Source of the DNA: a virus
DNA length: 32,674 bases
Reading direction: 5' to 3' (one strand)
UHGV virus genome: UHGV-0193647
Of this stretch, positions 3,071 through 13,374 are shown piece after piece. Numbering within the stretch: position 1 is the stretch's first letter; each line of letters opens with the position of its first letter. The position numbers and the translations under genes are program-made. The notes beneath the pieces are model-generated. The model had not been told where the DNA came from. It searched no databases and was given only the letters and a program-made list of their open reading frames with translations.

Positions 3071-3089
3071 GTGCTTTCCCCGCCTCGCC
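3071..3089. other. cos: cos site (19-nt cohesive end)
   Basis: gtgctttccccgcctcgcc is the reverse complement of GGCGAGGCGGGGAAAGCAC. That is the 19-nt cohesive end as I recall it for P2/P4. It sits just past Q, as in P2. Confidence 0.75.
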
Positions 3090-3246
3090 TGCCCGCTTCG
3101 TGAGTCGGAATTAATGCAGATGCAACAGGCCTCCCGATCCGCGCCAGTCCTGGCGGCAAGTATCAAAATATAAAGGTAAACACACATGCAAAATGATGCA
3201 TCAAACGGATGCATTAACTTGACTGAGATAGAGACAAACTTTAATA

Positions 3247-4047
3247 CTATTTCATAAGCCCTATAAACGCGGCAAACATACTTCCCAGACCACCTATTGC
3301 AGCAAATAGAGTAGCCCAAAACATACTCCTCTGGCTGCGTATGTTTTCTGTATATCGCTGCTCTGTTTTATTAAAATTAGCCAAGGTATTTACCGCTTTT
3401 CCTGTTGGCCTATACCCCAACTTAGTCCTTGAAATATCGCCATTTTCAACAAGTGAATCAAGGCACAGACGGAGTTCTTTTCTCATCCGTGATTGATCAT
3501 CGTGATAGACCCATAATCTACCAGCAACATCATTCATAACTAGTATTTCGCTGAATGGTCCTTCGCCTTCCTGCTCTCGATAGATTCTAACAACGGAGGC
3601 TAAAACAGTCATTGCATCAGTAATTTCTTGCTTACGCTGACGATAAAGAAACTTCTCACGGCTAAATCTTTTATTCTCTGCGTTAGCGAAGCGTCTAAAT
3701 CTTAGCAGCTTCAAAAAGCTCAAATCACTTAATGAATTAAATCTCAACTCATGCGCATGATAATAATAAATACCCGAAAAAGAATCACACTCAAGATCTT
3801 TTGGAAAGAGAATAGAATCAATATTGAATATATTTTCATTCGCATTCCATTTTTTAACTTTCACCTCACCATCCACAAACCTTTCGAATAAATAATCCGC
3901 ACCATCACGGTCTTTGATGTAAACAGAATACATGTTGTAATGTATGGCTTTTTCATATATCAAACTAATCCGCCCATTATCAGGGGTTCTCATCACATCG
4001 AAAATATCAAGATATTTTATAATGTTAATTTGTCTTTTATTTTTCAT
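3247..4047 (-). CDS. hypothetical AT-rich cargo protein, 266 aa, C-terminal transmembrane anchor (FWATLFAAIGGLGSMFAAFIGLM)
   Basis: Long ORF in a visibly AT-rich island between cos and tum, on the same strand as A and tum. I recognise no family. The only hydrophobic helix is at the extreme C-terminus. Confidence 0.6.
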   Translation of the reverse strand: MKNKRQINIIKYLDIFDVMRTPDNGRISLIYEKAIHYNMYSVYIKDRDGADYLFERFVDGEVKVKKWNANENIFNIDSILFPKDLECDSFSGIYYYHAHELRFNSLSDLSFLKLLRFRRFANAENKRFSREKFLYRQRKQEITDAMTVLASVVRIYREQEGEGPFSEILVMNDVAGRLWVYHDDQSRMRKELRLCLDSLVENGDISRTKLGYRPTGKAVNTLANFNKTEQRYTENIRSQRSMFWATLFAAIGGLGSMFAAFIGLMK

Positions 4048-4176
4048 TCTACGTACCCCTTTAAATTTACTTCAATACCATAGTTTGAGTGTAACTAACG
4101 CCTCGCATGCTCGTTGTTCAACCCCGCCGGCACTGAAAACAAGTTTCAGCACCGGCGGCGTTTGTAGCTATATTGG

Positions 4177-4908
4177 TTAATTATCGAGTATCGAAACGAT
4201 CTCACCGGTTCGCACGTCGACACGCGCCGCTACGGTCTGTTTTACCACCCCACCATAAGCATTAGTACCGCGAAACGTGGTTTTTACGATGGCATGTGGG
4301 TCTTTATTTAAAACCAAATGATAGACCGTTGAAACATGCTTGTAAGATGAATCATCATTCATGTTCGATTTTATTAGTTTTTCTAACGGACGATAAGAGC
4401 CATCCCAACCGCTAAAATTACCCTGAAATGCGTCAAGGTTGATTTTATTATTTAGAGATTGCGGCTCTTTCTCGAAGTCATTGAAACACCACCCCAACGC
4501 ATCACCGAGCTTTAATGCATCATCTTTAGTAAAAGTGTACTCACTCATACAAGCATAAAAAACATCAGTAGAGCTGGCCGGTACACTTTTGAAATCAACA
4601 TAGTTTTTAACGATATCGTGTCGGGCTTCTTTTGGCTCGTTGCGATATTCTTTGAGGGTTTTATCTGCATACTCAAACGTTGGCGTAGCCGGTTCCGCTT
4701 TAACCTCCAGCGCATCAGTTTTTTCAACAGGCTGGCTCTTTTCAGTCGGCCATAAAATTGAGCCAATAACGCCCAACGCGAGACAGCCACCAAGGTAAAC
4801 CGCACTGGAGCGTTTACGGTTCGGCATCCGAACCAGAGACGGCTTGATTAAACCCACTATAAAAGCAATAAAGAGTGCCAAAGATAAAAATGCTATTACG
4901 GTATCCAT
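4177..4908 (-). CDS. hypothetical AT-rich cargo membrane protein, 243 aa, N-terminal two-helix hairpin plus ~185-aa predicted periplasmic domain
   Basis: ORF begins MDTVIAFLSLALFIAFIVGLI ..KPSLVRMPNRKRSS.. AVYLGGCLALGVIGSILW and then a soluble domain. It is AT-rich. It occupies the P2 tin/old position. Confidence 0.6.
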   Translation of the reverse strand: MDTVIAFLSLALFIAFIVGLIKPSLVRMPNRKRSSAVYLGGCLALGVIGSILWPTEKSQPVEKTDALEVKAEPATPTFEYADKTLKEYRNEPKEARHDIVKNYVDFKSVPASSTDVFYACMSEYTFTKDDALKLGDALGWCFNDFEKEPQSLNNKINLDAFQGNFSGWDGSYRPLEKLIKSNMNDDSSYKHVSTVYHLVLNKDPHAIVKTTFRGTNAYGGVVKQTVAARVDVRTGEIVSILDN

Positions 4909-4990
4909 GATTTTCCTTTATGTGTAATCCCCATACAAAACAACCCCATGCTATCAAACAAGGGGTCGATGGTTGTACATTTTTCAGGAA

Positions 4991-5431
4991 CTAACGCCAG
5001 CTCTCATCTTCCCATACTTCCTGAAGGATACCGTCTAACGCTTCTCGGTCTGACTCCTGGTCGAACCCAACCAGTTCTACTCCGGTCATTGACCCTTTTT
5101 TTACCGTCACTCTCGTTGATGGGAAAATTGATTCTACGCGTCGGGTCAACTCGCACTGAAAAGCATCGACAACTTGCTGCCCGATTTTTTGGTCTTTATC
5201 CAACGTGATGTTAACCCTCACTTCGCCCCCTTTTTTTAATCTTTGTTCAACAGGAGCGGGAGCGAAAACAACTGAAAAAGAGTTGTTTTTCATCAAGTTC
5301 CCTCTCGCAATTTCCGCAATTAAATTCAAAGCAATTTCACGATCTCTTTCCTGACAAACACCCTCTGTCGTCAGACGCGCAATCATCTCGACCCGTTCAA
5401 TCATGACTTGCTCGTTTAACTCTCTATCCAC
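4991..5431 (-). CDS. tum: Tum-like SOS-inducible antirepressor (DinI-family C-terminal domain)
   Basis: C-terminus ..VRVNITLDKDQKIGQQVVDAFQCELTRRVESIFP..LQEVWEDESWR is DinI-like. A GTG start at 5431 has a GGAGG SD 4 nt upstream and gives 146 aa, the length of 186 Tum. An alternative ATG at 5404 gives 137 aa. The ORF track starts at 5512, but the LexA box lies inside that extension. Confidence 0.7.
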   Translation of the reverse strand: MDRELNEQVMIERVEMIARLTTEGVCQERDREIALNLIAEIARGNLMKNNSFSVVFAPAPVEQRLKKGGEVRVNITLDKDQKIGQQVVDAFQCELTRRVESIFPSTRVTVKKGSMTGVELVGFDQESDREALDGILQEVWEDESWR

Positions 5432-5451: not shown

Positions 5452-5467
5452 CTGTATAAATATACAG
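5452..5467. promoter_or_regulatory. LexA operator (SOS box) in the tum promoter
   Basis: CTGTATAAATATACAG is a perfect CTGT-N8-ACAG palindrome with an AT-rich centre. It lies ~20 nt upstream of the tum start, the same arrangement as the LexA-controlled p95-tum of 186. Confidence 0.8.
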
Positions 5468-5546: not shown

Positions 5547-7619
5547 TTACAGTCTCAACTTAGTAACTGACGCTAACCCCGCGACTCGATTTAGGATTTG
5601 TCTGGCCTGCGCCCGGTGTGACGGTGCTGCCGGGAAAATTTCACCGGTTGATGAACCACGGCACCATTTGCCGTTTATGCAACTTTTTCCACCGGCCATC
5701 AGGTGCAGGGCCTCACCCCGGCTGATGGTTTCGCCGGTAGTGAGCCGAATCTCGTCTATTGTTCTGTCAATGGCTGCACTTTGTTTATCCGTTCCGTGGA
5801 TAAAATCACACCCGATGACCCGTTTTTTGTCCCTGAGTCTGGTCGTTAGCTTCCGCCTTTCACTTCGACTCAACGGTTTGGATAAATCCAGCTCCGGCGG
5901 ATCGCTTTCGCTTCCCGTACAGTTATTGACAGAACTCCGAGAGGGCGCAGGAGCGCCCTTAACGTCAACGGCCAAATCAACGGCACGCTTCGGCACAATT
6001 TTCCACTGCGTGAGACGAGTCATAATTGGGGTATCTGCACCGATGGCAGAGTCGTAAACGCCACGAATACAGACGGTCTCCTCGCCGTACTGATTAAACT
6101 CGGTACGTGGTTCATACAACGTGCGTACCTGCAAATCGTCGCGGCGAACAAACGGCCCGCCCTGGGCGTTAACGTAACCAGCCCAGTCACCGGCATCAGC
6201 AGCATCATGCACAGCAGCAAACTCAACACTCAGACCATGCGCGGTCTCAGTATCGGCAAGGCGGCGTAGTTCGCGATAGACCGTCACTGGCGCACCACCG
6301 ACAAATTGAAACTGACGAATATGCCAGCGCGCGGCCCAGGCAGAAACGGCGGGCGCGGTCTCTTTCAACAGTTCGCCGCTTTCGTCGTCGAGCTCGCCAT
6401 CAAGCGCATATCCGTCGATATTTTTCGAAATGTATTTAGCAACATAGCCGGTAGCGCTACCCTTCTCCGGGTCAATGGCTTCGCCGTGGAAACGTGCTTT
6501 TTTGGCTTTATCGCTTCTCAGTTCGTGGCGGTCTTCCTCCCACGCATAATCGCGAATAATGAGGCGCACGCGCTCGACGTCTTCCGGCAACATGAACATA
6601 AGCATGTGCCAGTGAGGCGTTCCGTCGTGATGAGGCTCGGCAACACGGATGCCGAAAATGCGGATTTCTTCCCGATGTAGTTTGGCACGAATGCGTGCCC
6701 AAAGGCCGGTGAGATAACTCTGCGTGTCCGACGGGCTGGCTCCGTTCCATTTGCTGTTACGGTAGCCCGCTTTAGTTGTGGCGTGATATTTAGACGGCGC
6801 GGTCAGGGTGTAAAACTCCCCGACATAACCGAGTTCATTGCAGATATTTTCAAACCCACGGATGCGGGTCATCAGCTCGCAGCGGCGTATCGCAGGGTTA
6901 GCGACCGAACCGTCATATTTTTCTATCAGGCTGATTCGGTTGCCGTCTTCGTCTTCGAGATCCAGCCCCTTGAGAAACTCACGCGTGCGGCGCTTCTGCT
7001 CGCGCCAGTCTGTCACGCAGTTTTTACTCGCGTAGGCGTGCTTTTTCTTGCTGACGTTGCCGACTGCAATTTGTAGATGTTCGCGCCAAGCCGACGCGAC
7101 ACGACGCAGACGATTACGCCACCATGACTCAGTAAACATACGGATTACTGCGGGGGCTATATCATCTTTGTTGAAGTATTTATTTGCCACGCGCTCCCAA
7201 TGGGGAGGGGTGATATTGAATTGCAGAGAAATAAAACCAGCGTGCATGTACCAGGTGTATAGCGTTTTGAGCTCTCCAAAACCTGAGTCATCAATATTTG
7301 CCAGCTCAGAACGAATGAAATTCGCAATGTCACCGGCGAGCAGGTCAACATCGGCGCGCGACATATCAGGGAGGCGGTTATACCTGGCGACCATATTGAC
7401 CATGCGGGATGCCAGATATTGCATAAGCCGGGTATCAAAATGACCGCCAAAAATAGCGGCAGACGCATCGGAGTTGATGCCGTTGACCTGATACTTTTTG
7501 GTAACTAGCTCAATACGCGGCAATGCCTTTTTGCAGAAATTGACTAAAAAGGCATTGGCTCGTTGGCTACCCTGGCTTTTCTCCAGCGCATCAGCCTTAC
7601 GGAACACATCAAAGCGCAC
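5547..7619 (-). CDS. A: replication initiation endonuclease (rolling-circle), gpA-like
   Basis: 690 aa. Contains ..ATGYVAKYISKNIDG.., the active-site tyrosine motif of P2/186 A. Its position and size match 186 A (~694 aa). Confidence 0.85.
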   Translation of the reverse strand: MRFDVFRKADALEKSQGSQRANAFLVNFCKKALPRIELVTKKYQVNGINSDASAAIFGGHFDTRLMQYLASRMVNMVARYNRLPDMSRADVDLLAGDIANFIRSELANIDDSGFGELKTLYTWYMHAGFISLQFNITPPHWERVANKYFNKDDIAPAVIRMFTESWWRNRLRRVASAWREHLQIAVGNVSKKKHAYASKNCVTDWREQKRRTREFLKGLDLEDEDGNRISLIEKYDGSVANPAIRRCELMTRIRGFENICNELGYVGEFYTLTAPSKYHATTKAGYRNSKWNGASPSDTQSYLTGLWARIRAKLHREEIRIFGIRVAEPHHDGTPHWHMLMFMLPEDVERVRLIIRDYAWEEDRHELRSDKAKKARFHGEAIDPEKGSATGYVAKYISKNIDGYALDGELDDESGELLKETAPAVSAWAARWHIRQFQFVGGAPVTVYRELRRLADTETAHGLSVEFAAVHDAADAGDWAGYVNAQGGPFVRRDDLQVRTLYEPRTEFNQYGEETVCIRGVYDSAIGADTPIMTRLTQWKIVPKRAVDLAVDVKGAPAPSRSSVNNCTGSESDPPELDLSKPLSRSERRKLTTRLRDKKRVIGCDFIHGTDKQSAAIDRTIDEIRLTTGETISRGEALHLMAGGKSCINGKWCRGSSTGEIFPAAPSHRAQARQILNRVAGLASVTKLRL

Positions 7620-8945: not shown

Positions 8946-9317
8946 TTAATTAGCTAAAAAGCATTCATGGATTGAAATATGCCGGGGTAAAATCCCACCC
9001 CAGCGGGAAATTTTATTCATTGACGCAATAATCAGCTTGCGGCGGTTCATATCAAAATATTCATATGGTTTACCGACTTCATCAGAGCTAAACGCACCCG
9101 GATTATTTCGGTTAGCAAGCGTTAAAACCACAAACTTAAAATCTTCATCAAGCTTATTGAAATTACGCAGTGCCTTATTTTCTGTTGCTTTCAGTTTTTG
9201 ATGAAACCGTGCGAAACACTCTTCGCCGGTCATGGTCTTCGGTTGCTCAGTAGAACAATCTGCATTGCTAAAAAGCTTGCTCGCCTGGGTGTCATGAGCT
9301 GAAATTCTTTCGTTCAT
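8946..9317 (-). CDS. hypothetical early protein (123 aa), in the positional slot of 186 dhr
   Basis: ORF overlaps the next gene by 4 nt. No family recognised. The dhr analogy is positional only. Confidence 0.5.
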   Translation of the reverse strand: MNERISAHDTQASKLFSNADCSTEQPKTMTGEECFARFHQKLKATENKALRNFNKLDEDFKFVVLTLANRNNPGAFSSDEVGKPYEYFDMNRRKLIIASMNKISRWGGILPRHISIHECFLAN

Positions 9318-10457: not shown

Positions 10458-11033
10458 TTGATACTTGATACTCAGGTGAATAACGACGAGTTACTGGATA
10501 GAATTTGTCAAGTATATGGTTTTACTCAAAAAATCCAGCTAGCCCGGCACTTCAATATTGCAGCCAGCTCCCTACAAAATCGCTACACTCGTGGCACTGT
10601 TTCTTATGACTTCGCCGTGCAGTGCGCCTTAGAAACTGGAGCAAGCCTACTATGGCTACTTACGGGGCAAGGCTCTCAATATGATGGCAAACCGTCCCCA
10701 ACGGATCCGAAAACGATAGACTCATTCACTCTTAGTGATGGAAAGCTCGAAGAAAATTCACCATTGAGTATTGACTCCGGTTTTTTTAGCAAGCAAATGT
10801 CAAAAGGCATTGCTGTTCGCGCCGATGGAAAGCTGCACTTCATAGAGCAAGATGCCTCACTTTCTGATGGCCTTTGGTTGGTTGATATTGAGGGGGCTAC
10901 CAGCATCAGAGAATTGACGCTCCTACCAGGCAAAAAGCTACACGTTGCGGGCGGAAAAGTACCGTTTGAATGTAGGATTGACGAAATAAAACTGATTGGC
11001 CGTGTAATTGGTATATATAGCGATGTCAACTAA
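10458..11033 (+). CDS. cI: CI immunity repressor (186 CI-like)
   Basis: 191 aa. ..LLDRICQVYGFTQKIQLARHFNIAASSLQNRYTRGTVSYDFAVQCALETGASLLWLLTG.. and a C-terminus ..LWLVDIEGATSIRELTLLPGKKLHVAGGKVPFECRIDEIKLIGRVIGIYSDVN. I recognise both as 186 CI-like. The start is TTG, with an AAGGAA SD 6 nt upstream and an in-frame TAA just before it. Confidence 0.8.
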   Translation: MILDTQVNNDELLDRICQVYGFTQKIQLARHFNIAASSLQNRYTRGTVSYDFAVQCALETGASLLWLLTGQGSQYDGKPSPTDPKTIDSFTLSDGKLEENSPLSIDSGFFSKQMSKGIAVRADGKLHFIEQDASLSDGLWLVDIEGATSIRELTLLPGKKLHVAGGKVPFECRIDEIKLIGRVIGIYSDVN

Positions 11034-11065
11034 TCCCTATATCCACGATGAATAAGGAAACTATC

Positions 11066-11596
11066 ATGGATACTATAATTCCGATTTTGTTTTTAGGTCT
11101 GTCTTTTTTTTCGATGATTACTTATTTTAAGTCACCGGAAAAATTAGCAATGCGAGTGGCTAAAGGAGTTGCAGCTTTTCTTGCTTCTATTGCTGCCTTT
11201 GGGGCCTTTTTAGGTGGTGATTATGCACTATCACTTCCTATCGCCTTTATTGTTCTTTTCCTGACAATTCGCCAGTTAAAAACATCTAAAACCCTATCAT
11301 CTGTAACACATCAACCAATCTCTTTTAGCACACCAAAAGATCCTATAAGTAAGCGTAAGCCCGATAGTGAGTTTAGAAATATTTCATTTGAGTACACAGA
11401 CTTAAATGGCAATTCAACTCATAGAGAAGTTGATGTAAAAGAGATTACTGAACAACACATTACAGGATATTGTCATTCACGCAGGCAACTAAGGACCTTC
11501 CGTTTAGACCGAATTGATAATAGTGAGATTGTCGTCCGTGATACGGGCGAGTTAATCAATGTCTATGACTGGATTGTCCAGCTATATGGAGAATGA
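11066..11596 (+). CDS. membrane-anchored WYL-domain protein (3 predicted TM helices plus C-terminal WYL-like domain)
   Basis: AT-rich ORF between cI and int. The ORF track starts at 11048, but the Met at 11066 has an AAGGAA SD. TM helices: IIPILFLGLSFFSMITYF, VAAFLASIAAFGAFLGG and LSLPIAFIVLFLTI. C-terminal ..ISFEYTDLNGNSTHREVDVKEI..GYCHSRRQLRTFRLDRIDNSEIV matches the WYL-domain hallmark (..Y.d..G..t.R.v.P......w.l.ayc..r...RtFRldRI..). Confidence 0.6.
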   Translation: MDTIIPILFLGLSFFSMITYFKSPEKLAMRVAKGVAAFLASIAAFGAFLGGDYALSLPIAFIVLFLTIRQLKTSKTLSSVTHQPISFSTPKDPISKRKPDSEFRNISFEYTDLNGNSTHREVDVKEITEQHITGYCHSRRQLRTFRLDRIDNSEIVVRDTGELINVYDWIVQLYGE

Positions 11597-11605
11597 GGTT
11601 TACTC

Positions 11606-12604
11606 ATGACCGTTCGAAAAAACCCCGATGGCGGTTGGATTTGTGAACTCTACCCAAACGGTGCGAAAGGCAAGCGCATCAGAAAGAAATTCGCCACTAA
11701 AGGCGAGGCGCTGGCGTTCGAACAGTACACCGTTCAAAACCCTTGGCAGGAAGAAAAGGAAGACAGGCGCACATTAAAAGAGCTGGTTGACTCATGGTAT
11801 AGCGCTCATGGCATTACCCTGAAAGACGGCTTAAAACGCCAGTTAGCGATGCACCATGCTTTTGAGTGTATGGGCGAACCTCTTGCACGCGATTTCGATG
11901 CACAGATGTTTTCCCGCTACCGAGAAAAACGGTTAAAAGGTGAGTACGCCCGTTCAAACAGAGTGAAAGAGGTATCGCCTCGCACGCTTAATCTTGAGCT
12001 GGCCTATTTCCGGGCAGTATTCAATGAGCTAAACCGTCTCGGAGAATGGAAGGGGGAAAACCCACTGAAAAATATGCGCCCATTCCGCACAGAAGAAATG
12101 GAAATGGCCTGGCTAACTCACGACCAAATTTCGCAACTGCTCGGAGAGTGTAAACGGCATGACCACCCTGATTTAGAAACCGTGGTAAGAATTTGTCTCG
12201 CCACTGGCGCACGGTGGTCTGAGGCCGAGAGTCTGAGAAAAAGCCAGCTTGCGAAATACAAAATCACATACACCAACACGAAAGGCAGAAAAAACCGCAC
12301 CGTCCCAATCAGCACAGAGCTCTATGAGTCTCTGCCTGATGATAAAAAAGGCCGGTTGTTTAGTGATTGTTATGGCGCGTTCCGGTCAGCTCTGGAAAGA
12401 ACAGGCATCGAACTACCAGCAGGACAGCTTACCCATGTTTTGCGCCACACCTTCGCCAGCCACTTTATGATGAATGGAGGCAACATTCTTGTTCTACAGA
12501 GGATATTAGGACATACAGATATAAAAATGACCATGCGTTATGCTCATTTTTCCCCTGACCATTTAGAAGATGCTAAACTATTAAATCCATTGGTAAAAAA
12601 ATGA
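11606..12604 (+). CDS. int: tyrosine integrase (186/P2 family)
   Basis: 332 aa. The N-terminus MTVRKNPDGGWICELYPNGAKGKRIRKKFATKGEALAFEQY.. is 186 Int-like. The C-terminal catalytic region has ..HVLRHTFAS.. and ..LGHTDIKMTMRYAHF.., the R-H-R-Y signature. Confidence 0.9.
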   Translation: MTVRKNPDGGWICELYPNGAKGKRIRKKFATKGEALAFEQYTVQNPWQEEKEDRRTLKELVDSWYSAHGITLKDGLKRQLAMHHAFECMGEPLARDFDAQMFSRYREKRLKGEYARSNRVKEVSPRTLNLELAYFRAVFNELNRLGEWKGENPLKNMRPFRTEEMEMAWLTHDQISQLLGECKRHDHPDLETVVRICLATGARWSEAESLRKSQLAKYKITYTNTKGRKNRTVPISTELYESLPDDKKGRLFSDCYGAFRSALERTGIELPAGQLTHVLRHTFASHFMMNGGNILVLQRILGHTDIKMTMRYAHFSPDHLEDAKLLNPLVKK

Positions 12605-13374
12605 CGACACTAGAAAAAGCAATATATAATATATCTAAACACAAGGCTATCTCTATTTTCCTTTTTATGGTAATAGCATTGATATTCCTATCACCTTTAT
12701 TATTATATTTTCATCAGTTCCATAACAACCTATCATCTCAACCTGAAAAATGGTCATTTTTTGGTTCTTTCATTGGTGGGATTTACGGACCTATAGTTAC
12801 ATTAATTAGTGTATTTGTATTAGTAATCACAGTCATAGAAATCAATCAATCAAATAAAGCAAGTATTAACGAGGCAAGAAACACGAATTATGTAAGTGAG
12901 TTGATAACCTTATCAGAAATCCTTAATAGATCTATAGATAATAACATTTACATTAAAAATGACAGAAATTATTTTTTCAACAACCTAAACAACATTGCAT
13001 TTAATAAAATAAAGAGCAAGCCCCATGTAAATAGTGAAGTGATTTTAAAGACCTGTACACGAAAATTCGTAGAAAATGAGAGGGTTTTATTTGAAAATGA
13101 GATTGATATTCTGCATGAAATCTTTTCTAGAATTGAAAGCATCCCTAACGCGGAATTAGCTGAGAGGGCAAAAGGTATTTTTAGGGGGGTTATACGTAAT
13201 AATGAAAGGTTTTGGATTGAATGTTACATACGTCGTTTTAGGGAAGACCTTGTTCCCTACCTATTGTCATGGAACACGTTTAGCAAGACCCCGCTAAAAC
13301 TTCTAAGTCTAATACCTGAACCATCGCAAGAAGATGGCGATAAAGTGGCGATGGAAATGGCGGATAATGGGTAA
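12601..13374 (+). CDS. hypothetical AT-rich membrane protein (257 aa), translationally coupled to int, adjacent to attP
   Basis: The ATG overlaps the int stop (ATGA). Two N-terminal TM helices: ISIFLFMVIALIFLSPLLLYF and FFGSFIGGIYGPIVTLISVFVLVITVI. Then a ~170-aa soluble domain. Very AT-rich. No family recognised. Confidence 0.6.
   Translation: MTTLEKAIYNISKHKAISIFLFMVIALIFLSPLLLYFHQFHNNLSSQPEKWSFFGSFIGGIYGPIVTLISVFVLVITVIEINQSNKASINEARNTNYVSELITLSEILNRSIDNNIYIKNDRNYFFNNLNNIAFNKIKSKPHVNSEVILKTCTRKFVENERVLFENEIDILHEIFSRIESIPNAELAERAKGIFRGVIRNNERFWIECYIRRFREDLVPYLLSWNTFSKTPLKLLSLIPEPSQEDGDKVAMEMADNG

What the first reader, a model, noticed from the sequence alone, without database searches (positions are those of the whole stretch)
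3090..4990. AT-rich two-gene cargo cassette in the cos-proximal variable locus (position of P2 tin/old), a candidate novel anti-phage system
The ~1.9 kb between cos and tum/A is sharply AT-rich against a GC-rich backbone. It carries exactly two co-oriented genes (266 aa and 243 aa) that I cannot assign to any family. In P2 this interval, A to cos, holds the anti-phage genes tin and old. It is a recognised variable defence hotspot in P2-like prophages. Both products are membrane proteins with opposite topologies: one tail-anchored and cytoplasmic, one N-anchored and periplasmic. That is a plausible sensor-plus-effector or exclusion pair. I rank this as the best candidate for an undescribed defence or exclusion system in the window.
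Basis: partly seen in the sequence, partly recalled or inferred. Interest (0 to 1): 0.85.

Follow-up and report, generated by a model that had tools for sequence, protein, structure and literature searches.

The report
Known orf97 plus unknown hotspot gene
The AT-rich stretch next to the packaging site of this 186-like prophage is not a new two-gene defence system: one gene is the known SOS-controlled orf97 of phage 186, and the other is a separately mobile, uncharacterised membrane-anchored gene sitting in a known defence hotspot, which makes it a reasonable but untested anti-phage candidate.

Summary
An AT-rich tract lies between cos (3071-3089) and tum. It carries exactly two co-oriented ORFs, of 266 aa (GC 37%) and 243 aa (GC 43%), on a ~57% GC backbone.

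- **ORF243** is 90% identical to phage 186 Orf97. That is the second gene of the LexA-controlled tum-orf97 SOS operon, annotated "expression from plasmid blocks 186 infection". It is backbone in sequenced 186-like phages.
- **ORF266** is separate cargo. Relative to 186, it sits where the terminator t95b lies.
- **The two genes are not inherited as a pair.** 62 of 76 orf97 loci lack ORF266, and 14 of 32 ORF266 loci lack orf97. Some loci have an intrinsic terminator between them.
- **The orf97-to-cos slot is a real variable defence hotspot.** Alternative occupants include AbiP2, PDC-S31, PDC-S64-like and DUF262/NsnA-like genes.

ORF266 belongs to a large uncharacterised family (612 representative clusters). 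Pfam, NCBIfam, PADLOC and PDB give no match. The predicted fold is a β-domain, a basic helix, a winged helix and a C-terminal membrane anchor.

My best reading is a known SOS-induced exclusion gene next to an autonomous single-gene hotspot cargo that may be anti-phage. That function is untested.

The parts
3071..3089 (-). cos: the 19-nt P2-type cohesive-end sequence GGCGAGGCGGGGAAAGCAC
   Evidence: Exact match on the minus strand. It aligns with the P2 cosR end and the 186 right end.
3090..3214 (-). Conserved cos-proximal region, including a weak stem-loop ATGCATCCGTTTGATGCAT followed by CATTTTGCAT at 3196-3214. This is the downstream boundary of the ORF266 cassette.
   Evidence: Aligns with 186, Kp4852-2, an Enterobacter prophage and P2. 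Flagged as terminator-like, but its fold is no better than shuffled sequence (z -0.66).
3247..4047 (-). ORF266: a 266-aa cargo gene. Predicted as a tail-anchored inner-membrane protein with a cytoplasmic β-domain (about 37-105), a very basic long helix (106-140, pI 11.6), an acidic winged-helix domain (about 141-215) and a C-terminal TM helix (about 242-265). GC 36.7%.
4095..4164 (-). Conserved ~70-bp boundary element. It contains a 15-bp-stem hairpin (about 4125-4160) with no U-tract. The ORF266 cassette begins just after it, following GCGAGGCGTTAG.
   Evidence: Centroid fold -31.6 kcal/mol, z -3.3. Found at 90-96% identity, mostly unannotated, in the listed E. coli genomes, most of the 56 matching records, and in PSP3 and Midge. 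It lies after orf97 in 186-type phages, before orf97 in E. coli P2-type locus L014, and after a truncated tum in L026. No Rfam match.
4177..4908 (-). orf97 homologue (243 aa): two N-terminal TM helices, a flexible linker and a predicted periplasmic helical + β-sheet domain with invariant Cys120 and Cys141.
   Evidence: 90% identity over 243/243 residues to 186 Orf97. The 186 annotation reads 'expression from plasmid blocks 186 infection'. phrog_3403. AF2 model pLDDT 84. Family conservation.
4933..4968 (-). t95a-like stem-loop followed by GUUUUGU, lying between tum and orf97. Its counterpart in 186 is a partial terminator.
   Evidence: Fold -24.7 kcal/mol, z -2.7. Its position matches the annotated t95a in 186.
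4991..5431 (-). tum homologue (146 aa from a GTG start behind GGAGG): a DinI-family antirepressor and the first gene of the SOS operon.
   Evidence: 83% identity over 146 aa to 186 Tum. Pfam DinI E 6e-16. phrog_189.
5452..5467 (-). LexA box CTGTATATTTATACAG in the p95-equivalent promoter region upstream of tum.
   Evidence: The only CTGT-N8-ACAG site in the 32.7-kb window. It lies at the position of the annotated LexA site and p95 of 186. Similar boxes occur in homologous loci L007, L024 and L026.
5547..7619 (-). Replication gene A, the upstream backbone flank of the hotspot.
   Evidence: Pfam Phage_GPA E 5e-134. 80% identity to 186 A.

Best explanation
The interval holds two independent modules, not one system.

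**Module 1: orf97 (4177-4908).** This is the orthologue of phage 186 orf97. It lies downstream of tum in the LexA-repressed p95 operon, so it should be switched on by DNA damage together with the antirepressor. It encodes an inner-membrane protein whose folded domain is predicted to face the periplasm. Its known phenotype in 186 is that expression blocks 186 infection. The most likely role, by inference, is superinfection exclusion at the envelope or DNA-entry step while the prophage is being induced.

**Module 2: ORF266 (3247-4047).** This is an autonomous single-gene cargo. It occupies the variable slot between the conserved backbone hairpin and cos, where 186 has only its terminator t95b.
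- Expression: no canonical terminator or convincing promoter lies between orf97 and ORF266. In 186, p95 transcripts pass the same hairpin. ORF266 is therefore probably transcribed, at least in part, by read-through as a third SOS-operon gene (inferred).
- Product: a tail-anchored membrane protein with a cytoplasmic β-domain, a basic helix and a winged helix.
- Function: from its position in a proven defence hotspot and its neighbours elsewhere, the most likely function is single-gene phage exclusion or abortive infection. The cytoplasmic domains would recognise a phage protein or nucleic acid at the inner face of the membrane. The membrane helix would either anchor that sequestration or oligomerise to damage the membrane. 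This part is hypothesis.

**Sub-confidences**
- orf97 identity: about 0.98.
- The two genes are independent modules: about 0.85.
- SOS read-through expression of ORF266: about 0.5.
- ORF266 is anti-phage: about 0.45.
For: **orf97 and the SOS operon**
- 90% full-length identity to 186 Orf97.
- The 186 record annotates p95, the LexA site, t95a, t95b and the infection-blocking note.
- tum is 83% identical to 186 Tum.
- The window has a single LexA box, at 5452-5467, and a t95a-like hairpin.
- At least 21 sequenced phage records share the tum-orf97 block, but none encodes ORF266.

**Insertion point**
- Homology to 186 stops after GCGAGGCGTTAG.
- It resumes at the cos-proximal GTGCAT...TTTTGCATG motif.
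- The 186 t95b sequence (GACCGGTACTATTAAAGCCGGTTTTTTT) is absent from the window.

**Independence of the two genes**
- Of 76 IMG/VR orf97 loci, 14 have ORF266 and 62 do not.
- Of 32 informative ORF266 loci, 18 have orf97 and 14 do not.
- In E. coli, only 6 of the 105 genomes matching the orf97 + ORF266-homologue query cover both genes.
- L007 has ORF266 fused onto the orf97 ATG-GAT start, with orf97 deleted.
- L027 and L054-L058 have A followed directly by the ORF266 homologue and then the portal gene.
- L014 has a GC stem plus T8 terminator between the two genes.
- L003 and L006 carry the same ORF266 allele, but their orf97 alleles are 88% and 71% identical to the window's.

**Hotspot character**
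- At least 15 unrelated gene families occupy the slot after orf97.
- They include AbiP2 (E 3e-162), PDC-S31, PDC-S64-like, NsnA/PD-T4-2_A-like and PtuB-like HNH genes.
- The gpA-gpQ hotspot has been described in the literature (PMC9122126).

**ORF266 homologues outside P2-like phages**
- One lies beside a type VI retron and PDC-S31 (L010).
- One lies beside an Mrr-like gene, with a Shedu SduA_C gene nearby (L021).

**Architecture**
- AF2 model, pLDDT 80.
- The same length and architecture is kept across 612 clusters.
Against: - There is no functional evidence of any kind for ORF266. Context association is anecdotal for the distant family members, since only a few loci were sampled.
- Rousset et al. 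found activity for only about a third of the hotspot systems they cloned. They also note that non-defence cargo lives in the same hotspot, such as partition systems and a cytolethal distending toxin.
- ORF266 and orf97 are adjacent and co-oriented in about half of ORF266 loci, on two different backbones (186-type and P2-type). That is more than a random hotspot occupant might show.
- Read-through of the strong hairpin (-31.6 kcal/mol) is inferred from the 186 annotation, not measured here.
- SOS-only expression would be unusual for a lysogen-protecting defence gene. P2 old and tin have their own promoter and the opposite orientation.
- The winged-helix domain is acidic (pI 5.0). DNA recognition by it is therefore doubtful.
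- The exclusion mechanism proposed for Orf97 rests on a one-line GenBank note. The primary paper, Brumby et al. 1996, is not held.
Confidence: 0.55

Rival explanations
1. ORF243/Orf97 and ORF266 form one two-component anti-phage or exclusion system. One would be a periplasm-facing membrane sensor and the other a cytoplasm-facing membrane partner, working together.
For: - The two genes are adjacent and co-oriented, and are predicted to sit in the same membrane with complementary topology.
- The pair is found together in 18 of 32 ORF266 loci, on two different backbones: 186-type with tum, and P2-type without tum.
Against: - Each gene is frequently found without the other: 62 of 76 orf97 loci and 14 of 32 ORF266 loci.
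- 186 Orf97 has its phenotype with no ORF266 present in the phage.
- orf97 alleles and ORF266 alleles reassort: L003 and L006 carry the same ORF266 allele with orf97 alleles of 88% and 71% identity.
- In L014 an intrinsic terminator separates them.
- In Pantoea L007 orf97 is cleanly deleted while ORF266 stays intact.
- The position after orf97 is filled by at least 15 unrelated genes. These include stand-alone systems such as AbiP2.
Confidence: 0.12
2. ORF266 is not a defence gene. It would instead be a phage-benefit or host-modulating accessory gene (a moron). One possibility is an SOS-induced membrane-tethered adaptor or regulator that helps lytic development, DNA handling near the membrane, or the timing of lysis. 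Another is a lysogenic-conversion factor unrelated to phages.
For: - It is co-oriented with tum-orf97 and probably co-transcribed with them, so it would be expressed when the prophage is induced rather than in the quiescent lysogen.
- In Pantoea it sits directly in the SOS operon.
- The same hotspot is documented to carry non-defence cargo (PMC9122126).
- Winged-helix domains of the kleisin, MarR and PadR types mediate protein binding or regulation.
- It matches no known defence model.
Against: - It is dispensable for every sequenced 186-like phage, since none has it.
- It is rare and patchy.
- It is interchangeable with recognised defence genes in the same slot.
- It is also found outside prophages, next to a retron, PDC-S31, Mrr-like and Shedu genes.
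- One copy is decaying into a pseudogene (L072). That fits dispensable cargo.
Confidence: 0.3
3. ORF266 is a spurious ORF or a decayed remnant in AT-rich spacer DNA.
For: Its composition is AT-rich, and no curated family matches it.
Against: - A full-length conserved family exists: 27 close clusters at 51-99% identity, with 59 invariant columns across the 21 aligned sequences.
- 612 representative clusters share the same length.
- It matches a PHROG family.
- The AF2 model is confident, pLDDT 80.
- A ribosome-binding site, AAAGGGG, lies 8 nt upstream of the ATG.
Confidence: 0.01

Closest known systems
Phage 186 orf97, the second gene of the LexA-controlled p95 'SOS operon' tum-orf97 (Brumby et al. 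1996, as annotated in GenBank U32222)
   Same: - The 243-aa gene is 90% identical over its full length.
- It occupies the same position, after tum and a t95a-like hairpin, downstream of a LexA box.
- The same conserved hairpin lies just after its stop codon.
   Different: - In 186, orf97 is followed by the terminator t95b and then cos. Here t95b is absent, and an 0.8-kb extra gene fills that space.
P2 old and tin, and the gpA-gpQ cos-proximal defence hotspot of P2-like phages (Rousset et al. 2022, PMC9122126; PMC13586616)
   Same: - Same genomic interval, between replication gene A and cos/portal.
- AT-rich and variable among relatives.
- Alternative occupants here include AbiP2, PDC-S31 and DUF262-type genes.
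   Different: - There is no sequence relationship to Tin, and no PADLOC model, Old-type models included, matches either protein.
- old and tin are transcribed from their own promoter on the cos side, towards A.
- ORF266 and orf97 point the other way, in line with the SOS operon.
Inner-membrane superinfection-exclusion proteins, such as T4 Imm/Sp, P22 SieA and HK97 gp15. This is a functional analogy recalled from general knowledge and was not tested here.
   Same: - Orf97 is a small prophage-encoded inner-membrane protein.
- Its expression blocks infection by its own phage type.
- Its folded domain is predicted to face the periplasm.
   Different: - No sequence or fold similarity was found or tested against these proteins.
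- Orf97 is SOS-induced rather than constitutively expressed.
- The step it blocks has not been established.
Membrane-tethered winged-helix proteins (ToxR/CadC type) and winged-helix domains of kleisins and MarR/PadR regulators
   Different: - The order is reversed. The anchor is at the extreme C-terminus and there is no periplasmic sensor domain.
- The winged helix is acidic, pI 5.0.
- There is no sequence-level match apart from one distant member that hits Pfam HTH_45 at E 0.002.
- An additional N-terminal β-domain has no identified relative.

Membership tests
Phage 186 Orf97 / SOS-operon second gene | Full-length sequence homology to 186 Orf97 | tested here: met
   219/243 identical residues, no gaps, E 3e-172. 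phrog_3403 matched over its full length.
Phage 186 Orf97 / SOS-operon second gene | Located directly downstream of tum, behind a LexA-controlled promoter, with a partial terminator between tum and orf97 | tested here: met
   tum homologue at 83% identity. LexA box at 5452-5467. t95a-like hairpin followed by a U-run. The layout matches the U32222 annotation.
Phage 186 Orf97 / SOS-operon second gene | Expression blocks infection by 186-type phage | not testable with these tools
   Only the GenBank note for 186 is available. The primary paper is not held.
Cargo of the P2-like gpA-gpQ (cos-proximal) defence hotspot | Lies between replication gene A and cos/portal | tested here: met
   The gene order is A 5547-7619, tum, orf97, ORF266, cos 3071-3089, portal 1858-2901.
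Cargo of the P2-like gpA-gpQ (cos-proximal) defence hotspot | Presence or absence varies among otherwise collinear relatives | tested here: met
   For ORF266: absent from all 50,697 phage records, present in 14 of 76 orf97 loci, and covered in only 6 of the 105 E. coli genomes that match the orf97 + ORF266-homologue query. For orf97 this is only partly true. It is near-constant in 186-type phages, but the orf97-type DNA matches only 105 E. coli genomes, against 2156 that match the flanking cos/portal region.
Cargo of the P2-like gpA-gpQ (cos-proximal) defence hotspot | The slot is shared with recognised defence genes | tested here: met
   AbiP2 (E 3e-162), PDC-S31, PDC-S64-like, NsnA/PD-T4-2_A-like and PtuB-like HNH genes occupy the same position after orf97.
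Cargo of the P2-like gpA-gpQ (cos-proximal) defence hotspot | Confers resistance to phage infection | not testable with these tools
   This needs cloning and phage challenge.
P2 Tin / Old | Sequence homology to Tin, or to the Old ATPase-nuclease | tested here: not met
   hhalign of both family profiles against Tin gives probability below 1%. No PADLOC or Pfam hit for either protein.
Any defence family modelled in PADLOC-DB v2.0.0 | HMM match of the protein or of its wider family | tested here: not met
   There are no hits for either protein. Of 53 diverse ORF266-family members, one gives a marginal WH_III-A hit at E 0.004. Newer DefenseFinder models could not be run.
Obligate two-gene system (orf97 + ORF266) | Consistent co-occurrence and co-transcription of both genes across relatives | tested here: not met
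   62 of 76 orf97 loci lack ORF266, and 14 of 32 ORF266 loci lack orf97. L014 has an intrinsic terminator between them. Alleles reassort.
Winged-helix fold superfamily (ORF266 residues about 141-215) | An H-H-H-β-β winged-helix topology that matches solved winged-helix domains | tested here: met

The most novel reading that the evidence does not exclude
ORF266 would be the founding member of a widespread, undescribed single-gene anti-phage family of about 260 aa, spanning at least 612 clusters at 50% identity. It would be a tail-anchored inner-membrane protein. Its cytoplasmic β-domain and winged helix would sense an invading phage component at the membrane. It would then act alone, through its own membrane helix or by sequestration. 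In this prophage it would be wired into the LexA/SOS operon, so that protection is switched on while the prophage is being induced.
Probability: 0.3. Interest if true: 0.6.

Novelty: new member of a known kind. Interest (0 to 1): 0.4.

Why it matters
The cos-proximal hotspot of P2-like phages has already yielded several validated defence systems. ORF266 is a compact, autonomous occupant of that slot. It belongs to a large family that curators have not touched, and its architecture is unusual: a winged helix tethered to the membrane by a C-terminal anchor. If it protects against phage, it would add a new single-gene family.

It would also give an example of defence cargo plugged into an SOS-induced operon rather than expressed in the resting lysogen.

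The analysis also shows that orf97 acts as a conserved anchor gene beside a highly variable slot. A conserved 70-bp hairpin element marks the boundary between backbone and hotspot. That makes the hairpin a practical landmark for mining this hotspot in 186-like prophages.

As submitted, though, the 'novel two-gene system' claim is half explained by a gene described in 1996.

Tried and rejected
**Family and structure searches**
- Pfam, NCBIfam and PADLOC gave nothing for either protein. PHROGs gave only unknown-function families.
- Scanning 53 diverse ORF266-family members gave only one marginal HTH_45 hit and one marginal WH_III-A hit.
- PDB sequence profiles found nothing for either family.
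  - ORF266 matched generic winged-helix domains only, and no match was found for its N-terminal β-domain.
- Foldseek against viral predicted structures found nothing at E ≤ 0.001.
- The AFDB libraries were not available.
- Homology to P2 Tin was rejected.

**RNA and promoters**
- Rfam found nothing in the whole window or the locus.
- One sigma-70-like site lies upstream of ORF266 (TTGAAG-18-TAGAAT, ending at 4046). Its -10 hexamer overlaps the start codon, so I rejected it as this gene's promoter.

**Alternative occupants of the slot**
- I tested whether the different genes found after orf97 in E. coli H10, E. coli AR_0081 and Klebsiella phage Kp4852-2 are diverged ORF266 relatives. They are not.

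**Searches that added little**
- A profile search of the 5.8-billion-sequence database with the wide alignment added no new annotated members.
- The species-representative genome scan gave only 4 loci.
- Brumby et al. 1996 is not held.
- The WP accessions of the E. coli homologues appear in no held paper, and not in the supplements of Rousset et al..
Full report
**1. What is there**

The window is a 186-like (Peduoviridae) prophage. The closest sequenced relatives and protein matches point to Klebsiella.

Reading the minus strand from 7619 down to 2900, the order is:
- replication gene A (5547-7619; Pfam Phage_GPA, E 5e-134);
- a LexA box, CTGTATATTTATACAG (5452-5467), the only such site in the window;
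- a 146-aa tum/DinI gene starting at a GTG behind GGAGG (4991-5431; 83% identical to 186 Tum);
- a stem-loop followed by a U-run (about 4933-4968);
- the 243-aa ORF (4177-4908);
- a very stable hairpin without a U-tract (about 4125-4160; centroid -31.6 kcal/mol, z -3.3);
- the 266-aa ORF (3247-4047);
- the P2-type cohesive-end 19-mer at 3071-3089;
- the portal and terminase genes, on the other strand.

Composition:

| Feature | GC | GC3 |
|---|---|---|
| ORF266 | 36.7% | 33% |
| ORF243 | 43.0% | 41% |
| tum | 45.8% | 46% |
| portal (Q) | 56.5% | 70% |
| terminase (P) | 57.8% | 73% |

The one caveat is that the low-GC tract continues through tum.

**2. The 243-aa gene is phage 186 orf97**

The protein is 90% identical to 186 Orf97, with 219 of 243 residues matching and no gaps. 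The surrounding DNA is about 85% identical to the tum-orf97 block of 186. The same block occurs in at least 21 phage records, covering Salmonella, Yersinia, Erwinia and Klebsiella phages.

The 186 GenBank record annotates:
- p95, 'SOS-dependent transcription of SOS operon';
- a LexA site;
- t95a, a partial terminator between tum and orf97;
- t95b, the operon terminator after orf97;
- for orf97, 'expression from plasmid blocks 186 infection'.

A Salmonella prophage paper likewise treats tum and orf97 as the 186 SOS operon, citing Brumby et al. 1996 (PMC5322425). The primary paper is not in the held library.

So this gene has been known since 1996, and an exclusion-type phenotype is on record, although its mechanism is not.

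The AF2 model (pLDDT 84) shows:
- two N-terminal membrane helices joined by a +5 loop;
- a disordered linker;
- a helical bundle plus a four-stranded sheet.

**3. The 266-aa gene is a separate insertion**

Alignment with 186 shows that homology ends just after the conserved hairpin, at GCGAGGCGTTAG (window about 4095). It resumes at the cos-proximal motif near 3214. The 186 terminator t95b (GACCGGTACTATTAAAGCCGGTTTTTTT) lies in between in 186. It is absent here, and the ORF266 cassette fills that interval.

No sequenced phage in the 50,697-record collection encodes a relative.

Close homologues (51-99% identity, 27 clusters) occur in Klebsiella, Enterobacter, E. coli, Citrobacter, Cronobacter and Salmonella.

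A profile search of 1.84 billion representatives finds 612 clusters at E ≤ 0.001, and 186 at E ≤ 1e-10. Nearly all of the 150 listed are 230-330 aa, and most match over most of their length. The family is therefore large and entirely uncurated. It has no Pfam, NCBIfam, PADLOC or PDB match, even across 53 diverse members.

**4. The two genes are not a co-inherited pair**

IMG/VR viral contigs gave 76 orf97 loci that also contain the portal gene:
- 14 carry an ORF266 homologue;
- 62 do not. Of those, about a dozen have the short, 186-like gap to cos, and about 50 carry other cargo.

Of 32 informative ORF266-family loci:
- 18 have orf97 immediately upstream (10 on a 186-type backbone with tum, 8 on a P2-type backbone without tum);
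- 14 have no orf97.

In complete E. coli genomes, 105 match the orf97 + ORF266-homologue query. Only 6 cover the ORF266-homologue part; the listed remainder match only orf97.

Individual loci make the same point:
- In Pantoea L007, orf97 is deleted and ORF266 is joined to the orf97 ribosome-binding site and first two codons.
- In L027 and L054-L058, the ORF266 homologue is the only gene between A and the portal gene.
- In E. coli L014, a canonical terminator (GCCGAC...GTCGGC followed by T8) separates orf97 from the ORF266 homologue.
- L003 and L006 carry the same ORF266 allele, but their orf97 alleles are 88% and 71% identical to the window's.
- One locus, L072, has the ORF266 homologue split in two.

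The pair is adjacent more often than a random occupant would be, so I keep the pair model as a minor rival.

**5. The slot is a real defence hotspot**

Clustering the ORFs found between orf97 and the portal gene gives at least 15 unrelated gene families. PADLOC scans identify:
- AbiP2 (E 3e-162);
- PDC-S31/DUF2971;
- a PDC-S64-like gene;
- a DUF262 NsnA/PD-T4-2_A-like gene;
- a PtuB-like HNH gene, from the Kp4852-2 locus.

The commonest occupants have no match at all: a 244-aa two-TM protein in 15 loci and ORF266 in 14.

This agrees with the published description of the gpA-gpQ region as a defence hotspot. In that study about a third of cloned systems were active, and non-defence cargo was also present (PMC9122126; PMC13586616).

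Outside P2-like phages, ORF266 relatives were seen in these contexts:
- next to a type VI retron (HTH_VI + RT_VI) and PDC-S31, inside a conjugative T4SS cluster (L010);
- next to an Mrr-like gene, with a Shedu SduA_C gene nearby (L021);
- in a Rahnella island beside a SEC-C-motif protein (L009);
- in another prophage near HicAB (L012).

These contexts are suggestive, but they are few.

**6. Expression (inferred)**

No canonical terminator lies between orf97 and ORF266. The only sigma-70-like site there overlaps the ORF266 start codon.

In 186, the p95 transcript ends at t95b. That is about 50 nt beyond the same conserved hairpin, so the hairpin does not stop it.

ORF266 is therefore probably transcribed, at least in part, as a third gene of the LexA-controlled operon. 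In Pantoea it certainly sits in that operon. In L026 it follows a LexA box, a truncated tum and the hairpin. In P2-type loci it must have its own promoter.

This wiring differs from P2 old and tin. Those have their own promoter and the opposite orientation.

**7. What ORF266 may do**

The AF2 model (pLDDT 80) has five parts; charges and pI values are:
- a six-stranded β-domain (about 37-105) carrying the family's most conserved motif, SFSGIYYYHAHE;
- a long, very basic helix (106-140; 11 K/R, pI 11.6);
- a winged-helix domain (141-215), which is acidic (pI 5.0);
- a basic juxtamembrane helix;
- a C-terminal membrane helix ending two residues before the stop codon.

My working mechanism is a single-gene exclusion or abortive-infection protein. 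The cytoplasmic domains would bind a phage protein or nucleic acid at the inner face of the membrane. The membrane helix would either hold that target there or oligomerise to damage the membrane. I put the anti-phage role at about 0.45. The main rival, an SOS-induced accessory function that benefits the phage or modulates the host, I put at about 0.3.

**8. Verdict**

The hotspot and its variability are right. 'Unassignable', 'two-gene cassette' and 'pair' are wrong.
- orf97 is already known.
- ORF266 is a new, untested member of the known class of cos-proximal hotspot cargo.
- Interest is moderate.

Noticed in passing
window 4095-4164 (hairpin about 4125-4160): A conserved ~70-bp element with a 15-bp-stem hairpin and no U-tract. 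It occurs at 90-96% identity, mostly unannotated, in the listed E. coli genomes (most of the 56 matching records), and in PSP3 and Midge. It marks the backbone/hotspot boundary: after orf97 in 186-type phages, before orf97 in E. coli P2-type prophages, and after a truncated tum in L026. There is no Rfam match and its function is unknown. It could be a recombination boundary or an RNA 3' stabiliser.
   Followed up: partly
window 11048-11596 (+): A 182-aa AT-rich ORF between the CI repressor (10458-11033) and the integrase (11606-12604). It has a hydrophobic N-terminal region (apparent TM segments, not computed) and a C-terminal WYL domain (Pfam WYL E 4.5e-7; PADLOC WYL). This is a membrane-anchored WYL protein in the immunity region.
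   Followed up: partly
window 12601-13374 (+): A 257-aa ORF whose start overlaps the integrase stop codon. The region is about 34% GC, the N-terminus is hydrophobic (apparent TM segments, not computed), and no family matches. It looks like cargo at the integrase/att end, which PMC13586616 lists as a minor defence hotspot of P2-like phages.
   Followed up: partly
L010 4255-7778 (Acerihabitans arboris contig): A 38%-identical ORF266 homologue lies about 460 bp downstream of a type VI retron (HTH_VI E 4.5e-27, RT_VI E 7.7e-104). A PDC-S31/DUF2971 gene lies beside it. The whole cluster is embedded among VirB4/6/8/9-like conjugation genes.
   Followed up: partly
L007 about 5880-6015 (Pantoea sp. 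B65): orf97 is precisely deleted. The ORF266 homologue is fused to the orf97 ribosome-binding site and its first two codons (ATG GAT ATG CTG...). This makes it the second gene of the SOS operon.
   Followed up: yes
IMG/VR loci L064-L143, the slot between orf97 and the portal gene: The most frequent occupant of the slot, in 15 loci, is an unrelated 244-aa protein with two N-terminal TM helices and no PADLOC match. Other unassigned occupants are 353-aa (minus strand), 311-aa, 313-aa and 429-aa proteins. These are further untested hotspot candidates.
   Followed up: partly
L072 (IMGVR_UViG_2740892277_000001): The ORF266 homologue is split into 126-aa and 121-aa ORFs, an apparent pseudogene. This fits dispensable cargo.
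   Followed up: no
L026 3632-3900 (E. coli contig AATIEZ010000041): A LexA box is followed by an ORF of about 60 aa in the position of tum (tblastn with the window's Tum finds no match there), then the conserved hairpin, then the ORF266 homologue. This is a variant SOS operon without orf97.
   Followed up: no
window 8946-9317 (-): A 123-aa ORF in a local AT-rich dip (GC about 0.38-0.41) within the early region. Pfam and PADLOC give no match.
   Followed up: no
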